In this document: one piece after another, positions 4,915 to 16,181 of the stretch
How positions within the stretch are numbered: the stretch's first letter is position 1
Layout: each line of letters begins with the position of its first letter
UHGV virus genome: UHGV-0198133
Length of the DNA stretch: 21,885 bases
From: a virus
Direction: 5' to 3' (one strand)
The notes under the pieces: generated by a model
What the model saw: the letters and a program-made list of their open reading frames with translations, nothing else
The model's database searches: none
Told to the model about the DNA's origin: nothing
Made by a program: the position numbers and the translations under genes

Positions 4915-5931
4915 TCACTCAATATAATTTAAAGGATTCTTAGTTACTGCATCTTCTAAGTGTTCTGGTGAAAAATGAGAATAGATCATCGTCATTTTTA
5001 TATCGGCATGGCCCAGAATATCGCGCAGCACCAGTATGTTTCCGCCATTCATCATAAAATGGCTGGCGAATGTATGACGTAGCACGTGAGTGCATTGGCC
5101 CTCTGGCAGCTCGATGCCAGCTCGCTTTACTGCTCGTTCAAAGGCTTTTCTGCACGGGGTGAATAGCTTCCCTCTGTTCTTGGGGAGTTCGTCATACAGA
5201 TCTTGAGATATCGGCACGGTGCGGTTTTTCTTACCCTTCGTCTTGGTATAAGTGATGCGGTATTTAGATAACTGATGGCCCTGCAGGTTTTCGGCTTCAC
5301 TCCAGCGTGCGCCGGTGGCCAGGCATATTTTTGCAATCAAAAGCAGACTGGGGTTTTGAGAATCAGCGCAGGCATCTAGCAGACGTTTAATTTCTTCCGA
5401 GGTCAGGAACGCCAGTTCCCCCTCAGCGATTTTAAATGTTGGCAGCCCGGCGAGAGGATTTGGTGCTGACCAGTGGCCTAGTTTTTTCAATGTGCCAAAA
5501 ACCGATGATAGGTTACGTTGCTCAAGATTCACCGTGCGTGGTTTTACTGGCGACATTAGTGTGCCGTCTTCGTTACGAACGTCACCTTTTAACCGTGCTT
5601 CGCGGTATTTCGTAAAGTCACCGGCTGTCAGTTCTGAGGCGATGGGGTCGCCTAGACCATTACAGATAATTCTAAGTTTCGCCATGAGGCGCTTGGGGTC
5701 TGCGAGTGTCTGACCATACAGGGAATACCAAAGCTCAATTAATTCTGATAGGCGTCGCCGATCATCCTTTTCACCCAACCACGGTTTTTTATTCACTTCT
5801 TCCATTGTGAAGCTTTCAAAAGCAATGGCTTCGCCTTTCGTAGCAAATTGCTTACGCACGCGCTTACCATTGCGTCCATTGGGATAGCACTCACACAACC
5901 ATTTTCCGTTCGGCTGTTTTCTGATGGTCAT
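4915..5931 (-). CDS. int: Tyrosine site-specific integrase (P2/186 Int family)
   Basis: 338-aa ORF adjacent to att. C-terminal catalytic region contains HVLRHTFASHFMMNGGNILVLRDILGHADIKMTMIYSHF (R, H-x-x-R and Y of the tyrosine recombinase signature). Confidence 0.9.
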   Translation of the reverse strand: MTIRKQPNGKWLCECYPNGRNGKRVRKQFATKGEAIAFESFTMEEVNKKPWLGEKDDRRRLSELIELWYSLYGQTLADPKRLMAKLRIICNGLGDPIASELTAGDFTKYREARLKGDVRNEDGTLMSPVKPRTVNLEQRNLSSVFGTLKKLGHWSAPNPLAGLPTFKIAEGELAFLTSEEIKRLLDACADSQNPSLLLIAKICLATGARWSEAENLQGHQLSKYRITYTKTKGKKNRTVPISQDLYDELPKNRGKLFTPCRKAFERAVKRAGIELPEGQCTHVLRHTFASHFMMNGGNILVLRDILGHADIKMTMIYSHFSPEHLEDAVTKNPLNYIE

Positions 5932-5932
5932 A

Positions 5933-6565
5933 TCAAAGGCTCTTAATGATTTTCAGTGCGCGGCCTACTACCTCAATGTCATCTAGGCCACACTCAAACG
6001 ATGAATCATCCTGATGTACTACTAATTTGTTTCCCGGGAGTCGAGTCAATTTAACAATGCTTTTTATCCCGTCGATATCGACTAACCACATACCATTTAC
6101 TGGTGGTGTTTGGTTGCGATCTATTAAATAAGAATCACCAGAAGTAGTCACCAGCAGTAGGTTGCTTGAGTCTGAGGGGAGTATGCTGCTATCAATGATT
6201 GCTTTTCCAGCATCGATCAATAAACCACCGTTGAGAGTCGCCTTGTCAATTTCAGGAGATACTAGTTCAGAAAGAGGTATAACCTTGCTGGAGTTCACGG
6301 AATTGATATTTTTTTGGGGTTCAATGTTTGAACCTGGCTCCCCCTGTCCGGTGGTTAGCCACAGTAAAGAAACTCCTGTTTCCAAGGCGCACTGAATCAC
6401 CCACTCTGCAGGAAAACTATCTCTTAAGTATCTGTTTGCCATGGTGCTTTTTGATGCGCCTAAGTGATCGCAAAGTTGCTGTCTGGACTTGAAATCATAG
6501 GCTGCCATTAGTCTATGGATAGCCTCTCTTCCCCCTGTATTCTCTCCAACCTTTACATGTATCAT
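5933..6565 (-). CDS. cI: 186-type CI immunity repressor
   Basis: 210-aa ORF divergent from the lytic operon, with its stop overlapping the int start (cI-int operon as in 186). N-terminal region has an HTH-like segment (LGASKSTMANRYL). Family assignment rests on position and size. Confidence 0.7.
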   Translation of the reverse strand: MIHVKVGENTGGREAIHRLMAAYDFKSRQQLCDHLGASKSTMANRYLRDSFPAEWVIQCALETGVSLLWLTTGQGEPGSNIEPQKNINSVNSSKVIPLSELVSPEIDKATLNGGLLIDAGKAIIDSSILPSDSSNLLLVTTSGDSYLIDRNQTPPVNGMWLVDIDGIKSIVKLTRLPGNKLVVHQDDSSFECGLDDIEVVGRALKIIKSL

Positions 6566-6684: not shown

Positions 6685-6927
6685 ATGAGCACTGATATTT
6701 CAATTCGTGTACCAAAAGAGATGGCTACGCCTGCAGAGTTCGCGGAATGGGAAGGTATCTCCCGCGGCTCCGTGTATCAAAAAATTCACCATGGTCAGCT
6801 TGCTAAATACATGGTCAAGAAAGAAAAAAACAAAGGCCGCGTAAGCCTGCGTTATTTAATGTACAAAACCGATCAGGTCCGTGAATCCCTCGGTCATTCC
6901 AACTTCCGCGTCATTGTTGGTAAGTAA
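6685..6927 (+). CDS. Apl/Cox-like excisionase and switch regulator
   Basis: 80-aa ORF, first gene of the rightward operon opposite cI, with an SD-like gggaga upstream. Assignment is by size and position only. Confidence 0.5.
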   Translation: MSTDISIRVPKEMATPAEFAEWEGISRGSVYQKIHHGQLAKYMVKKEKNKGRVSLRYLMYKTDQVRESLGHSNFRVIVGK

Positions 6928-6959: not shown

Positions 6960-7469
6960 ATGTTTGATTATAAGATTTCCAAACACCCGCATTTTGATGA
7001 AGCCTGTAGAGCTTTTGCACTTCGTCACAATATGGCGAAGCTGGCAGAACGTGCAGGAATGAATGTCCAGACTCTGCGAAACAAACTCAACCCAGATCAA
7101 CCGCATCAGCTCAATGCGCCAGAAATCTGGCTGCTTACCGATCTGACTGAAGATTCAACGCTGATAGATGGTTTTCTGGCACAGATTCACTGCCTGCCAT
7201 GTGTACCGATTAATGAGGTAGCAAAAGAGAAACTGCCGCATTACGTCATGAGTGCAACCGCAGAGATCGGGCGTGTTGCTGCAGGTGCGGTATCTGGCGA
7301 TGTAAAAACCAGTGCCGGTCGTCGTGATGCCATCAGCAGCATTAATTCTGTAACACGACTGATGGCGCTGGCGGCTGTTTCATTGCAGGCCCGTTTACAG
7401 GCTAACCCTGCGATGGCGAGTGCAGTTGATACTGTGACTGGCCTCGGTGCTTCATTCGGTTTGCTGTGA
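6960..7469 (+). CDS. cII: CII-like lysogeny-establishment regulator
   Basis: 169-aa ORF immediately after apl-like, with aagggggtagcATG providing an SD. Size and position match 186 CII. Confidence 0.55.
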   Translation: MFDYKISKHPHFDEACRAFALRHNMAKLAERAGMNVQTLRNKLNPDQPHQLNAPEIWLLTDLTEDSTLIDGFLAQIHCLPCVPINEVAKEKLPHYVMSATAEIGRVAAGAVSGDVKTSAGRRDAISSINSVTRLMALAAVSLQARLQANPAMASAVDTVTGLGASFGLL

Positions 7470-8299: not shown

Positions 8300-8533
8300 A
8301 TGCGTAATATTGAAACCCGCGCCACTAAAACCGGACCGGATGATGCAGGGCTTAATCTTTTACTGACAGAGGCTCGTCTGGAAGAACGCCGGGCAAGGGC
8401 TGAAGCAATGGCTGCCCGCCTTGATAGTCTTGCGTGTCATATCACATCCCGCCAGCTAAACCACGTCGAAGCGGCAGAACTGCTGCGTGTGACTGCTGAA
8501 GCAATCCAGAACGAAGCGCAGGAGATCCACTAA
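8300..8533 (+). CDS. Hypothetical early protein (start moved to ATG at 8300)
   Basis: caggag at 8286-8291 lies 8 nt upstream of ATG 8300; the ORF track began at TTG 8294. Stop overlaps the next start (TAATG). Confidence 0.5.
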   Translation: MRNIETRATKTGPDDAGLNLLLTEARLEERRARAEAMAARLDSLACHITSRQLNHVEAAELLRVTAEAIQNEAQEIH

Positions 8534-8760: not shown

Positions 8761-9614
8761 GCACCATCCTGAAATGGGCGGGTAATAAAACTGCCATTAT
8801 GTCCGAACTGAAAAAATACCTTCCTGCTGGCCCGCGACTGGTTGAACCTTTCGCGGGTTCCTGTGCAGTGATGATGGAGACGGATTACCCCAGCTATCTG
8901 GTTGCGGATATTAATCCTGATTTAATCAACCTCTATAAAAAGGTTGCTGCTGATTGTGAATCGTTTATATCTCGCGCCAGAGTTTTATTTGAGATCGCAA
9001 ACAGGGAGGTGGCTTATTACAACATAAGGCAGGAGTTTAATTACTCAACTGAAATTACTGATTTCATGAAAGCGGTATATTTCCTGTATCTCAATCGTCA
9101 CGGTTACCGTGGTTTATGTCGCTATAACAAGAGCGGGCATTTCAACATTCCCTACGGTAATTATAAAAATCCGTATTTCCCTGAAAAAGAAATTCGCGCA
9201 TTTGCAGAAAAAGCCCAGCGAGCAACGTTTATCTGCGCCAGCTTTGATGAAACGCTGGCGATGTTGAAGGCAGGGGATGTGGTGTATTGCGATCCGCCGT
9301 ATGACGGTACGTTTTCCGGCTATCACACTGATGGTTTCACTGAAGATGACCAGTATCACCTGGCATCCGTTCTTGAACATCGGTCATCAGAAGGACATCC
9401 GGTCATTGTTTCTAACAGTGACACATCCCTGATCCGTTCGCTGTATCGCAATTTTACTCACCACTATATCAAGGTAAAACGCAGCATCGGTGTGGCAGCT
9501 GGCGAGGGTAAATCAGCAACAGAAATCATTGCTGTTTCCGGGCCGCGCTGCTGGGTGGGATTTGATTATTCGCGTGGCCTGGATAGTTCTGCCGTGTACG
9601 GAGTACGTGCATGA
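8758..9614 (+). CDS. dam: DNA adenine (N6) methyltransferase, Dam-like
   Basis: ILKWAGNK near the N-terminus, FAGS (motif I) and DPPY (motif IV), the order characteristic of Dam-type MTases. True start is ATG 8758 with GGAGG upstream; the longer track ORF from 8697 overlaps the TraR-like gene. Confidence 0.8.
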
Positions 9615-12025
9615 GCCATGCCGATATGAACAACTGCTGCGGCTTTAACGAGGCTGCCGCAGCGTTCTCATGGAACAGCCCGAAAAAGGCCATTAACCCT
9701 TATCTGGACCCGGCGGAAGTTGCGCCGGTTTCTGCGCTTTCAAACCTGATCGCTCTGTACGCTGCCGATAACGAGCAGGAACACCTGCGCCGCGAGGCAC
9801 TGAGTGATCAGGTCTGGGAGCGTTATTTCTTTAATGAATCCCGTGATCCTGTCCAGCGCGAAATGGAGCAGGATAAGCTCATTAGTCGGGCAAAGCTGGC
9901 GCATGAGCAGCAGCGTTTTAATCCAGATATGGTCATTCTGGCGGACGTCAATGCCCAGCCTTCCCATATCAGCAAGCCGCTGATGCAACGTATTGAATAC
10001 TTCAGCAGCTTGGGCAGGCCAAAGGCTTATTCCCGCTATTTGCGTGAGACGATTAAGCCATGTTTGGAGCGACTGGAGCATGTACGCGACAGCCAGCTAT
10101 CTGCATCTTTTCGTTTTATGGCAAGCCATGTAGGGCTGGACGACCTGCTGATTCTGCCTGAAATGAGTCAGGATCAGGTGAAACGCCTGTCTACTCTTGT
10201 CGCTGCGCATATGAGCATGTGTCTTGATGCCGCTTGTGGTGATTTGTACGCCACCGATGATGTTAAGCCAGAAGAAATCCGCAAGACATGGGAAAAGGTG
10301 GCAGCAGAAACCCTGCGACTGGATGTTATCCCGCCTGCGTTTGAGCAACTTCGTCGGAAAAGAAACCGCCGTAAACCCGTGCCCTATGAACTCATTCCGG
10401 GTTCGCTGGCGCGTATGTTGTGCGCCGATTGGTGGTACCGGAAATTATGGAAGATGCGTTGCGAATGGCGGGAAGAGCAGTTGCGTGCTGTTTGCCTGGT
10501 CAGCAAAAAAGCATCTCCCTATGTCAGCTATGAAGCCGTGATGCATAAACGTGAGCAGCGCCGTAAGTCGCTGGAGTTTTTCCGTTCTCATGAACTGGTG
10601 AACGAAGACGGCGACACGCTGGACATGGAGGATGTGGTAAACGCCAGCAGCAGCAACCCGGCGCATCGCCGCAATGAGATGATGGCCTGTGTTAAAGGTC
10701 TGGAGCTTATCGCAGAAATGCGCAGTGACTGTGCCGTTTTCTACACTATCACCTGTCCGTCGCGTTTCCATTCCACGCTCAATAACGGCAGACCAAACCC
10801 GACCTGGACAAACGCGACGGTAAGACAAAGCAGCGATTATCTGGTCGGCATGTTTGCTGCATTTCGTAAGGCTATGCACAAAGCCGGGTTGCGCTGGTAT
10901 GGCGTGCGGGTGGCTGAACCGCATCATGACGGCACAGTTCACTGGCACCTGTTGTGTTTCATGCGCAAAAAAGACCGCCGCGCCATTACTGCATTGTTGC
11001 GTAAGTTTGCCATCCGTGAAGACCGCGAGGAGCTGGGCAATAACACGGGGCTACGCTTTAAGTCTGAGCTGATAAACCCGCGCAAAGGTACGCCAACAAG
11101 CTACATCGCGAAATACATCAGTAAGAACATTGACGGGCGTGGTCTGGCTGGCGAGATCAGCAAGGAAACGGGTAAATCCCTGCGTGATAACGCTGAATAC
11201 GTTAATGCCTGGGCGTCTCTGCATCGTGTTCAGCAATTCCGCTTCTTTGGCATTCCGGGGCGTCAGGCTTACCGTGAACTGCGATTGCTGGCTGGTCAGG
11301 CGGCAAGGCAACAGGGGGACAAAAAAGCAGGTGCGCCGGTACTGGATAACCCGCGCCTTGATGCAATCCTGGCTGCTGCTGATGCTGGTTGTTTTGCCAC
11401 CTACATCATGAAGCAGGGCGGCGTACTGGTTCCCCGCAAATATCACCTCATCAGAACTGCTTATGAAATCAACGAAGAGCCGACCGCCTATGGCGATCAC
11501 GGTATTCGTATTTATGGCATCTGGTCACCCATTGCAGAGGGCAAGATCTGCACTCATGCGGTGAAGTGGAAAATGGTTCGTAAGGCCGTTGACGTTCAGG
11601 AGGCGGCAGCCGACCAGGGCGCTTGCGCCCCTTGGACTCGTGGCAATAACTGTCCCCTTGCTGAAAATTTGAACCAACAGGAGAAAGATAAATCAGCTGA
11701 TGGGGACCCCAGAACGGACATTACCCGCATGGATGACAAGGTGTTGCACGATTACCTGCACAGTATGAACAAAAAGGAGCGCCGGGAATTGGCTGCAAGG
11801 TTACGTCTGGTGAAACCGAAACGGCGTAGAGACTACAAACAGCGAATTACAGACCATCAACGACAGCAGCTCGTCTATGAACTGAAATCCAGAGGATTTG
11901 ATGGCAGCGAGAAAGAGGTCGATTTACTCCTTCGCGGCGGCAGTATTCCGTCAGGAGCAGGCCTGCGTATCTTCTATCGGAACCAGCGTTTGCAGGAAGA
12001 TGATAAGTGGCGGAACCTGTATTAA
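9611..12025 (+). CDS. A: Rolling-circle replication initiator (P2 gpA / 186 RepA family)
   Basis: 804-aa ORF coupled to dam (ATGA overlap). Contains an HUH-like motif ([13 protein letters not shown]) and a twin-tyrosine motif YIAKYISKN resembling phiX174 gpA YVAKYVNK. Confidence 0.85.
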
Positions 12026-12095
12026 TTACGCTGGTTAACAATTCGTGCTCTTAATAATATCAGGCATATCAGGCTGATAAGCGTAAAAAAAACGT

Positions 12096-12138
12096 TTTAC
12101 ATCAGTAAGATTATTATATACTGTAAATATAAACAGTG
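12096..12138 (+). promoter_or_regulatory. Candidate SOS-regulated promoter with LexA box
   Basis: taCTGTaaatataaACAGtg at 12119-12138 fits the LexA box CTGT-N8-ACAG with an AT-rich spacer. Upstream TTTACA (12096-12101) and a 17-nt spacer place the -10 over the box. Confidence 0.5.
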
Positions 12139-12179
12139 GTTATACATACAGTATTGCGTGTGGTGTCATAGGAGGAAAG

Positions 12180-12368
12180 ATGCAGGACTATTTTTTGGAG
12201 TCTTTGAAGCTCCAGCGCATTGATTTTTTTCTTAAGCTTGTAGCGGCTAGTGAGTGCGATGATGAAGAGAAGCGGCTTGCTATCCAGTGGGTTTCGGAGC
12301 TGACCGATGAGTTAATGGCGAAAATCCGTACTCATGAGTACAACCGTTCAATGGATCTCCCCGGTTAG
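12180..12368 (+). CDS. Small SOS-controlled protein, Tum-like antirepressor candidate
   Basis: 62-aa ORF with AGGAGG immediately upstream, downstream of the LexA box, in the position after repA where 186 carries LexA-repressed tum. No sequence-level confirmation. Confidence 0.45.
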   Translation: MQDYFLESLKLQRIDFFLKLVAASECDDEEKRLAIQWVSELTDELMAKIRTHEYNRSMDLPG

Positions 12369-12952
12369 GCTTAGAAACGTTGCTGGCGTTAGGACTTGAT
12401 TCTGACGCTAGCAAGGTTGATCAACGAGCCATGCGAGGCGTTAGTCATGGGAAAAAAATAGTAACTTCCAGATTTTGCTTCGTGCCAGGTATTGAGTAGT
12501 TTTATCGCCAGAGGGGCTGTTAGCGCTCAAACTACTAATGGAGCCACACCTTAGATGAGTGATTTGGCTTAAGCTATGATTATATAGTTTCGCTGTACGG
12601 CGGCCTTGCTTTTTATTGAAGCGACCAGACTGGAACAACGGCGAAAGGAGACTAACGATACGCACCAGTTTTTTGAAAAGGTACAGTTATCTAGATTGGT
12701 TGCCAATTTTCGTTGAAACCTGACATACCATTAGGTCATTGCTTTAGAAAAATTAATACTTGATGTGAGAATTGCTTCAAAACATCTAGAATTAAAGTTT
12801 CTTTACTAGTATGCTTCATCACTTGGTCGTTGGGTTGAGTGCAAAAGCTAAGGCTGATGCCCAGTACGCTATCCGCATTATTGCCAGAGAACCGATTCGA
12901 AACCGGAATCTGGCAGAGCATGGGCGCAAGTGCTGGCTTCCCAACGGCCTCG

Positions 12953-13921
12953 TTATTTATAATATGCTGACTTCAAAACCACTCGTCTTTCAACCTGCTG
13001 TGATAGCATTACCGCGTTAGTCCAATCTTTTGGATACCTTATTTCTTCTATAACACGAATATAAGCACATACTTTATTTTTTCCCTCTCCTTTGGCATAA
13101 GTAACCTCTAGATTATTAAATTTCAATAAGTGCTCTCTTCTTTGGTAAGTAAAACAGCCGTAATCACGGACATCAGAAGAAGTAATAGCATGAGTTGAAG
13201 GAAACCGAACTAGTAAATTTCTCAAGTAGGGAATAATGTCCAAACTCGTTGCTTTGTTTTCTTCTCTGCGACTCTTTCTGAACATATGTCTCCAACCCAG
13301 CCGTGTAAGCTCGATTTTCCCAAGCACCGGAGATGTGATTTCTTTCTGTTCAGAATAACGTTTTTTAACAAACGCTCGCCGATTATTAAGTAGTGAGTTT
13401 CTTCTTCTTACATGGATTCCTTTTGCTCCAGTTTCACCTGCACGTACCATGGACATACAGCGAGCCAGGTCAAACCGTGTGGCCGGAGTGATTAAGTGAT
13501 ATTCTCCATAAGTTTGGTTTTTAAGGGTAGTGTTTGGATGTATATAGGCCCAAAATGCTTTACGATTAGTTCTGTCAACCCAAACGACACATATATGGTG
13601 AGTTGTCCTTTTGGCTGCTTTTTTTGCGGCCGAATTTAATACAAAACCTTTCTCTAATAAATGACCATAAGTTGCCCCTGATTTAACTTGCGATAATATA
13701 AGCATTCTTTCTTTTGATGCCCATGGATGTTCGAAGGATAATATTAAATCTATTTTTGAATTGTCGTCTTCCCTGGAACCCCAGTGCCCCTCTCCTCTAC
13801 AAGCAAGAATGAATTGACTCATTGCATAAGATTCGGCGTCACTGCCGTTAACTGAGTTAAACTGTCTTGTTTCTAGCACAGTTGGTATTGGTCGTGATGC
13901 AAGTAAACTGAAAGATCCCAC
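12953..13921 (-). CDS. Hypothetical AT-rich orphan protein in the repA-cos cargo slot (possible nuclease-like N-terminal domain)
   Basis: 322-aa ORF with GTG start at 13921 preceded by GGAGA (alternative ATG at 13822). N-terminal region has a pattern compatible with a PD-(D/E)xK-like core (E...KIDLILSF...MLILSQVKSG). Flanked by ~580 bp and ~600 bp of non-coding DNA. Confidence 0.5.
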   Translation of the reverse strand: MGSFSLLASRPIPTVLETRQFNSVNGSDAESYAMSQFILACRGEGHWGSREDDNSKIDLILSFEHPWASKERMLILSQVKSGATYGHLLEKGFVLNSAAKKAAKRTTHHICVVWVDRTNRKAFWAYIHPNTTLKNQTYGEYHLITPATRFDLARCMSMVRAGETGAKGIHVRRRNSLLNNRRAFVKKRYSEQKEITSPVLGKIELTRLGWRHMFRKSRREENKATSLDIIPYLRNLLVRFPSTHAITSSDVRDYGCFTYQRREHLLKFNNLEVTYAKGEGKNKVCAYIRVIEEIRYPKDWTNAVMLSQQVERRVVLKSAYYK

Positions 13922-14377: not shown

Positions 14378-14529
14378 CGCGCGCTAAGTCATATAAGAGT
14401 TATATATTGATTTGATTGCTGGACATGCATACAGTATCGCTCTATCATCTAATAAATCTTAGAGTATTTGGCAATGTTTGGATAAAATGGAACCTAACTT
14501 ATTCATAATCCGCTAAACAGGGATGTCAG

Positions 14530-15444
14530 ATGCCATACCAATTGGTAGAGCTTAGCCCCGTAGCTAACGATCTTGAACAGTTAGGAACCAAAGAGAAGTT
14601 TTGGTTCTATTTCTCCGATGACACTGTAAATTTGCAGTTGTTTAAGTACTCTAGGCCAGGTACTGGCGAGCATTGGTCTGAAAAGTGTGCTGCTGAGTTA
14701 TGTCATTTGCTTAACATTCCACATGCTAGCTATGATTTGGCGCGATACAATGGTCGATTCGGTGTGGTGACTCAGAATATCATTCCATCTGGTTTCCGGA
14801 TGGTAATGGGAAATGAAGTGCTTCACAGTTCGACATTCGATTATCCTGGGCCTTTACAAGCCGGGGAAAAGCCGGTAAGGGTCAGAGAACACACTGTCAC
14901 AAGGGTATTGGGTTGTTTGGATAGGGAATCTATCAAGCCTCCTCCGAGTGTATATGATCTAACCGGGCTAAATGCAGCAGATGTATTTTGTGGATATTTG
15001 ATGCTCGATGCACTTGTGAGTAATCAAGATCGCCATCATGAAAATTGGGCGATCATGCTTAACAATGAAACTGGTGAGCAGTTTTTGTGTCCAACATACG
15101 ATCATGCCGCTAGTTTAGGAAGGGAGATGTTAGATGATGAGCGTAACGAACGGCTTAATACTAAAGATAAAAATCGACAAATCCCATGTTTTGTAAGAAA
15201 AGCTCGCTCTGAGCTATTCAAAGCAAAAACTGATAAAAAGCCCTTGCTGACCGTTGAAGCATTTCAACATGCAGTTGAAGGGAGAGTTGCCGCTCGCGAC
15301 CATTGGTTAGGTAAGTTGAGCGTTTTAACAGAAGATTCCATTACAGATGTGTTTAACCAAGTGCCTTCATCGTGTATATCCGACAGTGCACGTAGATTTG
15401 CAACGTTAATGGTAATGGAAAATCGCAGAAGGTTACTAGAATGA
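14530..15444 (+). CDS. HipA-like Ser/Thr protein kinase, compact core only
   Basis: 304-aa ORF. Gly-rich loop LGTKEKFWF (compare HipA GAQEKT), catalytic-loop-like LVSNQDRHHENWA (compare HipA D-x-H-x-K-N) and Mg-binding-like PTYDHAAS 24 residues later (HipA D309 to D332 is 23). No HipA N-terminal subdomain. Confidence 0.6.
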   Translation: MPYQLVELSPVANDLEQLGTKEKFWFYFSDDTVNLQLFKYSRPGTGEHWSEKCAAELCHLLNIPHASYDLARYNGRFGVVTQNIIPSGFRMVMGNEVLHSSTFDYPGPLQAGEKPVRVREHTVTRVLGCLDRESIKPPPSVYDLTGLNAADVFCGYLMLDALVSNQDRHHENWAIMLNNETGEQFLCPTYDHAASLGREMLDDERNERLNTKDKNRQIPCFVRKARSELFKAKTDKKPLLTVEAFQHAVEGRVAARDHWLGKLSVLTEDSITDVFNQVPSSCISDSARRFATLMVMENRRRLLE

Positions 15445-16181
15445 CTAATACAAACTCCGTTTACGTCGCATGGCAGGCACCAGATACCAGAGACTGGCAT
15501 GTTGTTGGTAACTTGCAAGAGCGCAAATCGGGGTATGTTTTCAGGTATACCAAAGGTGCTCTTAAATCTACTAAATTTACAAAGTTTAGCGGCATGAGTG
15601 ATGTTCGTGAAACTTATGTTTCGGAAGAATTGTTTCCTCTTTTTAAAAATCGCCTTTTATCACCGAGACGTCCAGAGTATCCGAGTTTCATTAAATGGCT
15701 TGGATTTGAAGAAGATAAGGTAAATCCTATCGATATTCTTGCTCGCTCGGGAGGCTTACGAAGCACTGATCAGCTGCAGATTTTCAAAAAAATTGATGTT
15801 GATTCTGATGGTAACTTTGAGCATTTTTTCTTCTTACATGGACTTGGTTACTTAAATAGCTTAGCTAATGCTCGTGTATCTGAATTGAAACCGGGGCAAA
15901 TTTTGCGTCTTTGCTTGGATCTTCAAAATGAATACGATGGGGATGCTGTTGTCGTTCGTGCAGATAAACCAGCTGAAATCGTTGGTTACTGCCCTAGGTA
16001 TTTAAGTAATGATATCAAGAAGATGTTATTGGATGATCCAAAATCAATCACTTTAACGGTCGAAAAGATTAGCGATGATGCTCCTCATAACTATCGGTTA
16101 TTATGTAAATTATCAGGAGTACTAAGCCAAGCCTGTCAATCGACGCTGATTCCTCAGGATGAGTTTGAACCTATTGAGTAA
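15441..16181 (+). CDS. HIRAN-like domain protein with unknown N-terminal domain, coupled to the kinase
   Basis: 246-aa ORF whose ATG overlaps the kinase stop (ATGA). C-terminal half (FFLHGLGYL...LQNEYDGDAVVVRADKPAEIVGYCPRYLSNDIKKML) follows the HIRAN pattern seen in HLTF (VVGLRYY...NPYDKNAIKV...VGHLKKELA). Confidence 0.5.
   Translation: MTNTNSVYVAWQAPDTRDWHVVGNLQERKSGYVFRYTKGALKSTKFTKFSGMSDVRETYVSEELFPLFKNRLLSPRRPEYPSFIKWLGFEEDKVNPIDILARSGGLRSTDQLQIFKKIDVDSDGNFEHFFFLHGLGYLNSLANARVSELKPGQILRLCLDLQNEYDGDAVVVRADKPAEIVGYCPRYLSNDIKKMLLDDPKSITLTVEKISDDAPHNYRLLCKLSGVLSQACQSTLIPQDEFEPIE

What the first reader, a model, noticed from the sequence alone, without database searches (positions are those of the whole stretch)
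12096..12368. LexA box upstream of a small ORF after repA, implying SOS-inducible antirepression
A close match to the LexA operator overlaps the -10 of a promoter driving a 62-aa ORF with a strong SD. Together with the 186-type CI and CII genes, this suggests the prophage is induced through LexA derepression of an antirepressor rather than repressor autocleavage. The ORF is much shorter than 186 Tum as I recall it, so it may be a minimal antirepressor or something else under SOS control. A near-inverted repeat (ttgctggcgttag / ctgacgctagcaa) directly follows its stop.
Basis: partly seen in the sequence, partly recalled or inferred. Interest (0 to 1): 0.45.

Follow-up and report, generated by a model that had tools for sequence, protein, structure and literature searches.

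The report
SOS-controlled prophage antirepressor gene (tumA-type)

Summary
A 24-bit LexA box (12119-12138) overlaps the -10 of TTTACA-17-TACTGT. It drives a real 62-codon gene (12180-12368; AGGAGG SD; dN/dS about 0.07).

Together they form a colicin-type double operator, 27/35 identical to the ColE1 cea operator.

ORF62 is homologous to the N-terminal, non-DinI half of 186 Tum (hhalign 97%, E 9e-11; reciprocal PHROG hits). That explains why it is short: it is the tumA half of a split tum, as in PSP3 tumA/tumB and Fels-2 (STM2728, 93% identical).

The tum gene deleted in prophage DuoHS of E. coli HS is this same ORF. The published primers match the window exactly, the protein is 92% identical, and the promoter/operator region is 98% identical. 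There, both the tum deletion and lexA(Ind-) abolish mitomycin C induction.

The window's CI is 186-type with no detected S24 peptidase (autocleavage) domain.

This copy has no dinI partner. The inverted repeat is a conserved plus-strand RNA stem-loop (12 of 15 pairs with compensatory changes) followed by a nearly invariant box of unknown function. Both are also present in 186.

Verdict: interpretation supported, mechanism already known, but databases still label the gene hypothetical.

The parts
12096..12124 (+). Promoter of the SOS module: -35 TTTACA (12096-12101), 17-nt spacer, -10 TACTGT (12119-12124). TATACT at 12117-12122 with a 15-nt spacer is an alternative -10.
   Evidence: Same layout as the annotated 186 p95 promoter. 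The -35 and TATACTGT are invariant in six divergent loci while the spacer varies. The 157-nt region that contains it (12026-12182) is 98% identical among DuoHS, Fels-2 and the window; this stretch is unchanged.
12119..12138 (.). LexA box 1, TACTGTAAATATAAACAGTG. It overlaps the -10 and the predicted transcription start.
   Evidence: PWM score 23.5-24 bits; 0 of 300 random windows reach it. It is the only CTGT-N8-ACAG in the window. A box of at least 15 bits is found in 115 of 118 loci.
12134..12153 (.). LexA box 2, CAGTGGTTATACATACAGTA. It overlaps box 1 by 5 bp (15-bp offset), giving a colicin-type double operator.
   Evidence: 17 bits. Same architecture as the ColE1 cea operator, TGCTGTATATAAAACCAGTGGTTATATGTACAGTA, and 27/35 identical to it. 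Present in 74 of 118 ORF62-type loci and in none of the 186-type loci.
12170..12175 (+). Shine-Dalgarno sequence AGGAGG, 4 nt before the ATG.
   Evidence: Sequence. Invariant in the alignments.
12180..12368 (+). tumA-type antirepressor gene, 62 aa, predicted to be a two-helix hairpin.
   Evidence: dN/dS 0.07. Matches phrog_698 at E 1e-36. hhalign against the Tum N-terminal family: 97%, E 9e-11. 92% identical to DuoHS Tum and 93% to Fels-2 STM2728. AlphaFold2 model: pLDDT 87.7, helices 2-23 and 28-58.
12376..12410 (+). Conserved RNA stem-loop: 15 bp with a 5-nt loop, starting a few nt after the stop codon.
   Evidence: MFE -32.9 kcal/mol, z = -5.5. 94% of cells paired, 12 of 15 pairs with compensatory changes, slid controls at most 54%. 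163 G-U cells on the plus strand against 12 A-C cells, so it is a plus-strand RNA structure. No U-tract follows.
12413..12444 (+). Nearly invariant box GGTTGAtCAACGAG-N-GCGAGGCGTTAG at the end of the SOS module. Conservation stops here and the variable cargo region begins.
   Evidence: Found after tumA, after dinI, or after orf97 (186: L003 about 8376-8412, just before t95b) in 129 loci. No Rfam match. Function unknown.
5933..6565 (-). CI immunity repressor, 186 type. This is the presumed target of the antirepressor.
   Evidence: PF07022 and PF16452; no S24 peptidase domain detected. 33% identical to 186 CI and 44% to DuoHS CI, with roughly three-quarters identity in the N-terminal domain by my count from the alignment.

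Best explanation
This is the SOS induction module of a Fels-2/186-like (Peduoviridae) prophage of E. coli.

In the lysogen, LexA would occupy a double, colicin-type operator. Box 1 lies over the -10 and transcription start, and box 2 overlaps it 15 bp downstream. Together they would keep a weak promoter (TTTACA-17-TACTGT) shut.

DNA damage causes RecA-stimulated LexA cleavage. The promoter then fires and a 62-aa two-helix protein is made. This protein is the stand-alone equivalent of the N-terminal half of 186 Tum (PSP3 TumA, Fels-2 STM2728, DuoHS Tum).

The protein would inactivate the 186-type CI repressor by protein-protein binding, not by cleavage. That would release the early lytic promoter and induce the prophage.

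Shown here:
- the operator and its conservation;
- that the ORF is a gene under purifying selection;
- homology to the Tum N-terminal domain;
- the CI type;
- near-identity to the experimentally deleted DuoHS tum.

Shown in the literature for close homologues: tum and cleavable LexA are both required for induction.

Inferred:
- LexA occupies both boxes;
- this protein binds this prophage's CI, perhaps its N-terminal domain;
- the double operator raises the damage threshold;
- the 3' stem-loop defines or stabilises the transcript's 3' end.

Unlike DuoHS, Fels-2 and 186, this copy has no DinI-like partner.
For: - LexA box strength and uniqueness. It is conserved in 115 of 118 loci despite spacer variation.
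- Double-operator architecture is the same as ColE1 cea. Colicin double boxes bind two LexA dimers and give no basal expression (PMC2994835).
- The promoter layout equals the annotated 186 p95.
- Purifying selection on the ORF.
- Homology to the Tum N-terminal half: hhalign 97%, E 9e-11 over 49 columns. 186 Tum residues 7-44 hit phrog_698 at E 2e-5, and ORF62 hits the Tum-N families phrog_8554 and phrog_1993.
- The gene sits in the same place as 186 tum, directly after gene A.
- CI is 186-type with no detected peptidase domain.
- Split tum in Fels-2 and PSP3, with antirepressor activity in the upstream gene (PMC3121763). PSP3 tumA is annotated 'UV induction of prophage'.
- The DuoHS tum-deletion primers map exactly to window 12160-12182 and 12030-12050. 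The deletion junction equals the stop of the 62-aa ORF plus the start of dinI.
- In DuoHS the tum deletion and lexA(Ind-) abolish mitomycin C lysis and virion foci (PMC12055606).
- The window's ORF is 92% identical to DuoHS Tum, and the 157-nt upstream region is 98% identical with the -35, both LexA boxes and the SD unchanged.
- Antirepressor type matches CI type in 139 of 141 loci. The CI N-terminal domain tracks antirepressor type (58-100% identity within the group, L134 aside, against 31-46% between groups). The C-terminal domain does not.
Against: - Nothing in this window has been tested experimentally.
- Direct binding of this Tum subfamily to CI has not been shown in anything I could read. 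The DuoHS paper shows only that tum is genetically required.
- This CI is only 44% identical to DuoHS CI, so the pairing is assumed.
- The association between antirepressor type and CI type is confounded by lineage, because CII and A co-vary as well. One locus, L134, pairs an ORF62-type gene with a 186-like CI N-terminal domain.
- BLASTP finds no ORF62-Tum similarity. Homology rests on profile methods.
- The PWM was built from operator sequences recalled from memory.
- The -10 hexamer is weak and failed the simple promoter scan.
- I did not verify that the rest of the prophage is intact.
Confidence: 0.9

Rival explanations
1. The module is intact but not effective in this prophage. The TumA-type protein is made after DNA damage, but it does not match this CI allele, or the prophage is otherwise defective, so the module is a relic or acts only in trans on other prophages.
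For: The window's CI is only 44% identical to the CI of the tested DuoHS prophage. CI is very variable among prophages that carry nearly identical ORF62 genes (38-100%). A mismatched-looking mosaic exists (L134). Trans-acting antirepressors are documented in Salmonella (PMC3121763). BTP5 has tum but yields no detectable phage (PMC5322425, PMC7067206).
Against: Strong purifying selection on the ORF and the operator across genera. The CI N-terminal domain stays similar (58-100%, L134 aside) among prophages with this antirepressor type. Int, CI, CII, A, portal, terminase and capsid ORFs in the window are full length.
Confidence: 0.12
2. ORF62 is an SOS-induced accessory protein with a different job, such as modulating RecA/LexA together with DinI, or host physiology. 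It is not the antirepressor.
For: It usually sits 9-13 nt upstream of a dinI-like gene (22 of 37 genome loci). Shorter 186 Tum isoforms are annotated as modulating SOS induction. No Pfam or NCBIfam family covers it.
Against: The homology is to the non-DinI half of Tum. Clean in-frame deletion of the 92%-identical gene, leaving dinI in place, abolishes induction in DuoHS. The gene persists without dinI in the window and in 15 other genome loci.
Confidence: 0.04
3. The inverted repeat after the stop codon is an ordinary intrinsic terminator of the tum transcript.
For: A stable GC-rich 15-bp stem sits directly after the last gene of the module, on the transcribed strand, with covariation.
Against: No U-tract follows: the next bases are the invariant GGTTGAAC. 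The terminator scan did not report it. In 186 a separate canonical terminator, t95b, lies just downstream of the same element. The adjacent 30-nt box is far too conserved to be a mere terminator tail.
Confidence: 0.3

Closest known systems
tum of prophage DuoHS (E. coli HS, ECHS_RS04495) and STM2728 of Fels-2
   Same: 62 aa, 92-93% identical. The promoter/operator region is 98% identical to DuoHS, with the -35, both LexA boxes and the SD unchanged. Same position after gene A. Followed by the same 3' stem-loop and box. In DuoHS the gene and cleavable LexA are required for mitomycin C induction.
   Different: In DuoHS and Fels-2 a dinI-like gene follows 10 nt after the stop. Here it is absent and the 3' element follows directly. 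The C-terminal residues differ (DLPG against DVIS). The CI partner is only 44% identical. Different cargo lies downstream.
Tum of coliphage 186 (p95 SOS operon)
   Same: LexA-repressed promoter with the box over a TACTGT -10. First gene after A. The N-terminal roughly 45 residues are homologous. 186-type CI as partner. The same 3' stem-loop and box end the operon.
   Different: 186 Tum is 146 aa with a fused DinI-like C-terminal half and internal starts. It has a single LexA box. orf97 follows in the operon. Sequence identity to ORF62 is about 14% in the hhalign alignment, so the relationship is visible only to profile methods.
PSP3 tumA/tumB
   Same: Split arrangement: a roughly 60-aa tumA (annotated 'UV induction of prophage') upstream of a dinI-like tumB. 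LexA box upstream.
   Different: The TumA sequence is a third, divergent variant. It has a single box. tumB is present.
Colicin operators (for example ColE1 cea)
   Same: Two LexA boxes offset by 15 bp and sharing CAGTG. 27/35 identical to the ColE1 operator. Known to bind two LexA dimers and suppress basal expression of a lethal function (PMC2994835).
   Different: It controls a prophage antirepressor, not a colicin or lysis operon. Occupancy by two dimers was not tested here.
Gifsy/Fels-1 antirepressors (GfoA, GftA) and N15 AntC
   Same: LexA-controlled small antirepressors that bind non-cleavable repressors. In the Gifsy prophages they are also linked to a dinI homologue (PMC3121763).
   Different: Lambdoid (Gifsy, Fels-1) or N15 phages rather than P2-like. 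In the Gifsy prophages the gene order is reversed (dinI first). I did not compare their sequences with ORF62.

Membership tests
Tum/TumA-type LexA-controlled antirepressor of 186/Fels-2-like phages | Sequence homology to the N-terminal (non-DinI) part of 186 Tum | tested here: met
   hhalign A3 against A2: 97% probability, E 9e-11, 49 columns. Reciprocal PHROG cross-hits in the same register. BLASTP alone was negative.
Tum/TumA-type LexA-controlled antirepressor of 186/Fels-2-like phages | Promoter overlapped by a LexA operator | tested here: met
   24-bit box over the -10, plus a second overlapping box. Conserved in 115 of 118 loci. Actual LexA binding is not testable with these tools.
Tum/TumA-type LexA-controlled antirepressor of 186/Fels-2-like phages | Located at the distal end of the early region, directly after replication gene A | tested here: met
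   repA is at 9611-12025 (PF05840) and the ORF at 12180-12368. The order is the same in 186, PSP3, Fels-2 and DuoHS.
Tum/TumA-type LexA-controlled antirepressor of 186/Fels-2-like phages | Cognate 186-type CI repressor without a RecA-dependent autocleavage domain | tested here: met
   The CI at 5933-6565 has PF07022 and PF16452 only. It is 33% identical to 186 CI.
Tum/TumA-type LexA-controlled antirepressor of 186/Fels-2-like phages | Required for SOS induction; binds CI and blocks operator binding | not testable with these tools
   Requirement is shown for the 92%-identical DuoHS gene (PMC12055606). CI binding is shown only for 186 Tum (Shearwin 1998, as cited).
Full-length 186-type Tum (antirepressor fused or linked to DinI) | DinI-like C-terminal domain, or an adjacent dinI-like gene | tested here: not met
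   tblastn with the Klebsiella-phage DinI finds nothing in the window. No PF06183 hit. The 3' element starts a few nt after the stop. The window therefore holds a tumA-only module.
Colicin-type double SOS operator | Two LexA boxes overlapping by about 5 bp (15-bp offset) | tested here: met
   Boxes at 12119 and 12134. Same geometry as ColE1 positions 5061 and 5076 in L201, and 27/35 identical.
Rho-independent terminator (for the inverted repeat) | GC-rich stem followed by a U-tract | tested here: not met
   The stem is present. The 8 nt after it are GGTTGAAC or GGTTGATC, averaging 2 T. The scan did not call it.
Known RNA families (Rfam 15) | Match to a curated covariance model | tested here: not met
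   No match at the gathering threshold in the window. Only chance-level snoRNA hits in 12000-13000.

The most novel reading that the evidence does not exclude
The 15-bp stem-loop and the nearly invariant 30-nt box that close every Tum-type SOS module, including 186's, may be an undescribed cis-acting RNA element. It could set how much SOS-induced transcription ends at, or runs on into, the adjacent hypervariable cargo and defence hotspot. It could also set the lifetime of the tum mRNA, and so the induction threshold. This copy adds two further features that may matter: a colicin-type double LexA operator and the loss of the DinI partner. A tumA-only module of this kind might behave as a high-threshold, all-or-none switch.
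Probability: 0.2. Interest if true: 0.5.

Novelty: already known. Interest (0 to 1): 0.2.

Why it matters
The region explains how this prophage would sense DNA damage. The same type of module occurs in about one in five complete E. coli genomes (1103 of 5426).

The practical value is in annotation. PGAP calls the gene 'hypothetical protein', PHROGs lists it as phrog_698 'unknown function', and one UniRef entry names it 'levan regulatory protein'. It can be named a TumA-type antirepressor.

Three smaller points may be new and could be tested:
- the colicin-like double operator on an antirepressor gene;
- recurrent loss of the DinI partner;
- a conserved 3' RNA element shared with 186.

Tried and rejected
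- BLASTP of ORF62 against 186 Tum gave nothing. Profile methods were needed.
- Pfam and NCBIfam gave no family for ORF62. The PPP1R21_C hit at E 0.09 was dismissed as chance.
- PADLOC gave nothing for ORF62.
- A profile search of the PDB found no solved relative.
- The HMMER search of 1.84 billion representatives with the close-homologue profile found 87 clusters, nearly all small stand-alone proteins and none resembling a full-length fused Tum. It did supply the divergent members that made the hhalign test work.
- I asked whether the conserved GCGAGGCG box is the P2 cos site. There is no match to the P2 cohesive-end sequence as I recalled it within 3 mismatches. In 186 the box lies more than 200 bp from the genome end. 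Rejected.
- I looked for a partner sequence for the box elsewhere in the window. Nothing convincing was found.
- The search for related loci with the broad alignment A3 failed because it has no conserved stretch.
- One literature search was wasted on the term 'TumA', which matched unrelated words.
- Bunny et al. 2002 (PMC151935) is not held. Its content is cited only through Lemire 2011.
- My scan of LexA boxes upstream of 186-type tum was compromised by over-extended ORF starts, so the figure of 52 of 81 is a lower bound.
- The test of antirepressor against CI co-variation cannot be separated from lineage.
- I did not run a fold search on the two-helix model, because such a simple fold gives uninformative matches.

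Full report
**Context**

The window is part of a P2/186-like (Peduoviridae) prophage. Gene order is integrase (4915-5931, minus strand), CI (5933-6565, minus strand), an apl/cox-position ORF (6685-6927), CII (6960-7469), small early genes, a Dam-like methylase, replication gene A (9611-12025), then the region in question. Cargo genes follow, and then portal, terminase and capsid genes. The same 1.1 kb occurs at 100% identity in E. coli chromosomes. A related segment (end of repA, promoter and ORF) occurs in 1103 of 5426 complete E. coli genomes, where the ORF is annotated 'hypothetical protein'.

**Observation**

The sequence reads TTTACA (12096-12101), 17 nt, TACTGT (12119-12124). Then come AGGAGG (12170-12175) and an ATG ORF of 62 codons (12180-12368).

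- TACTGTAAATATAAACAGTG (12119-12138) is the only CTGT-N8-ACAG in 21.9 kb.
- I built a LexA weight matrix from 22 E. coli operators recalled from the literature, so the matrix itself rests on memory. With it the site scores 23.5-24 bits.
- The training sites have a median of 19.8 bits. None of 300 Markov-1 random windows reached the site's score.
- The simple promoter scan did not list this promoter, because the -10 matches only 3 of 6 positions. The experimentally defined 186 p95 promoter has the same -10 (TACTGT) embedded in its LexA box.

**A second box**

A 17-bit site, CAGTGGTTATACATACAGTA (12134-12153), overlaps the first by 5 bp. I fetched plasmid ColE1 and scanned it with the same matrix. 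Its cea operator, TGCTGTATATAAAACCAGTGGTTATATGTACAGTA, has two boxes at the same 15-bp offset and is 27/35 identical to the window's 35-mer.

Colicin genes characteristically use two overlapping SOS boxes. These bind two LexA dimers and prevent untimely, lethal expression, so that there is no detectable basal level (PMC2994835). Unscheduled antirepressor expression would likewise kill the lysogen, so the logic fits. Double occupancy here is inferred.

**Conservation**

I collected 37 genome loci and 80 viral-contig loci that encode relatives of the ORF.

- 115 of 118 have a box of at least 15 bits within 160 nt upstream (median 24 bits), although the spacer bases differ.
- 74 of 118 have the overlapping second box.
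- Pantoea/Erwinia-type loci and 186-type loci have one box.
- The -35 hexamer is invariant while the spacer varies.

**The ORF is a gene**

Among 70 distinct coding sequences, median dN is 0.074, median dS is 0.99 and median dN/dS is 0.07. Longer database versions of the protein are upstream over-extensions that read through the operator.

An AlphaFold2 model built from a 42-sequence alignment gives a confident two-helix hairpin (pLDDT 87.7; helices 2-23 and 28-58). There is no Pfam, NCBIfam or PADLOC family and no PDB relative. The protein belongs to phrog_698, labelled 'unknown function'.

**What it is**

186 Tum is 146 aa. Its C-terminal roughly 76 residues are DinI-like and have their own internal start.

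BLASTP sees no similarity between ORF62 and Tum, so I used profiles.

- An exhaustive HMMER search supplied divergent family members of 30-50% identity.
- An alignment of these (A3) was compared with an alignment of Tum N-terminal homologues (A2). Many of those homologues are stand-alone 63-78-aa proteins named 'Tum protein'.
- The comparison gave hhalign probability 97%, E 9e-11, over 49 columns, aligning ORF62 residues 1-44 with Tum residues 1-44.
- Independently, 186 Tum residues 7-44 hit phrog_698 positions 7-44 at E 2e-5, and ORF62 hits the Tum-N families phrog_8554 (8e-8) and phrog_1993 (0.005).

So the ORF is the antirepressor half of Tum as a separate gene.

**Literature**

Lemire et al. 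2011, citing Bunny et al. 2002, state three things (PMC3121763):

- Tum looks like an antirepressor fused to DinI.
[quoted passage not shown] The PSP3 record annotates tumA ('similar to 5' end 186 tum; UV induction of prophage') and tumB. A tblastn search shows that Fels-2 STM2728, labelled 'hypothetical protein', is 93% identical to ORF62. It is followed 10 nt later by a DinI-family gene described as similar to PSP3 TumB.

**Decisive link**

The Phollow study (PMC12055606) made an in-frame tum deletion and a lexA(Ind-) allele in E. coli HS, which carries the P2-like prophage DuoHS. Both mutants fail to lyse or form viral foci after mitomycin C.

The primers in its supplementary data identify the deleted gene:

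- The reverse complement of NHR24 is GTGGTGTCATAGGAGGAAAGATG, an exact match to window 12160-12182.
- NHR5 is an exact match to window 12030-12050.
- NHR28 joins that ATG to TGA-GGTGACTTTTATGCGCATTG. This is the stop codon of the 62-codon ORF plus the start of dinI in Fels-2 and in many other loci.

In the E. coli HS chromosome the gene is ECHS_RS04495 (62 aa, 'hypothetical protein'). It is 92% identical to ORF62. The 157 nt upstream are 98% identical, and the -35, both LexA boxes and the SD are unchanged.

**Partner repressor**

The window's CI has the 186 CI helix-turn-helix and C-terminal domains and no detected S24 peptidase domain. It is 33% identical to 186 CI. Induction by an antirepressor rather than by autocleavage is therefore expected.

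Across loci that contain both genes:

- ORF62-type antirepressors go with window-type CI in 70 loci, and Tum-type with 186-type CI in 69. Two loci are exceptions.
- This is confounded by lineage, because CII and A co-vary too.
- Within the ORF62 group the antirepressor stays at least 90% identical among the viral-contig loci that contain both genes, while CI ranges from 38% to 100%.
- The CI N-terminal domain stays at 58-100% apart from the L134 mosaic. The C-terminal domain drops to 28%, no better than between the two groups.
- DuoHS CI is 44% identical overall, with roughly three-quarters identity in the N-terminal domain by my count from the alignment.

This pattern suggests, but does not show, that the antirepressor contacts the DNA-binding domain. 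L134 pairs an ORF62-type gene with a 186-like N-terminal domain, which argues against strict pairing.

**Differences from the studied homologues**

In 22 of 37 genome loci a 77-aa dinI-like gene starts 9-13 nt after the ORF. In the window and in 15 other loci it is absent. The window therefore holds a tumA-only module. The modulatory DinI function inferred for 186, PSP3 and Fels-2 would be missing.

**The inverted repeat**

In RNA the repeat is a 15-bp stem with a 5-nt loop (12376-12410; -32.9 kcal/mol; z = -5.5). The same element recurs in 129 loci: directly after tumA, after dinI, or, in 186, after orf97 and just before the annotated terminator t95b.

- On 32 diverse sequences, 94% of cells pair and 12 of 15 pairs show compensatory double changes. 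Partner-slid controls give at most 54%.
- G-U pairs on the plus strand outnumber A-C cells, which would be G-U on the minus strand, by 163 to 12. The structure is therefore in the tum-sense RNA.
- It is not followed by a U-tract.
- It is followed instead by a nearly invariant box, GGTTGAACAACGAG-N-GCGAGGCGTTAG. Conservation ends abruptly after the box and the variable cargo begins.
- There is no Rfam match. The box is not the P2 cos sequence.

Its function is unknown. My best guess is definition or stabilisation of the transcript's 3' end, or control of read-through into the cargo.

**Verdict**

The mechanism is an already known one, a LexA-controlled Tum/TumA antirepressor, and a near-identical allele has been tested genetically. 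What remains unshown is direct CI binding by this subfamily and the behaviour of this particular CI pairing. Interest is low, apart from the annotation value and the small open questions listed above.

Noticed in passing
window 14407-14436 and 14530-16181: A third LexA-like box, TGCTGGACATGCATACAGTA (14417-14436, 19 bits), overlaps a TTGATT-17-TACAGT promoter-like site 113 nt upstream of a two-gene candidate defence system. The genes are a HipA-like kinase matching PADLOC PDC-M03A (E 2e-122) and a HIRAN protein matching PDC-M03B (E 3e-93). The box is conserved at the same distance in 9 other loci. One of these is a 71%-identical homologue with a different box sequence (21.6 bits), which suggests SOS control of this cargo.
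   Followed up: partly
window 12413-12444; 186 locus L003 about 8376-8412: A nearly invariant 30-nt box, GGTTGAACAACGAG-N-GCGAGGCGTTAG, follows the stem-loop. It is conserved between the 186-like and Fels-2-like lineages far better than the flanking genes. It ends exactly where the variable cargo starts. There is no Rfam hit and its function is unknown.
   Followed up: partly
window 12953-13921 (minus strand): A 322-aa ORF sits between the SOS module and the PDC-M03 genes. It has only sub-threshold Pfam hits (LPD3, DUF4365) and no PADLOC hit. It is an orphan cargo gene in the P2 hotspot.
   Followed up: no
locus L134 (IMG/VR UViG_2891954921_000001), CI at 2112-2690 and antirepressor at 9416-9616: This is a mosaic prophage with a 98% ORF62-type antirepressor but a 186-like CI and Apl. 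The CI N-terminal domain is 65% identical to 186 and 35% to the window. It is a natural test case for antirepressor specificity.
   Followed up: no
database annotations of ORF62 homologues: Some records name the protein 'levan regulatory (domain) protein' or give 87-109-aa versions. The long versions are upstream over-extensions translated through the LexA operator.
   Followed up: yes
186 locus L003 about 6985-7000: 186 and PSP3 carry a conserved CATATCATGTACATACAGTG motif, a LexA half-site-like sequence, about 45 nt upstream of the p95 box. It showed up as the top weak PWM hit in several 186-type loci.
   Followed up: no
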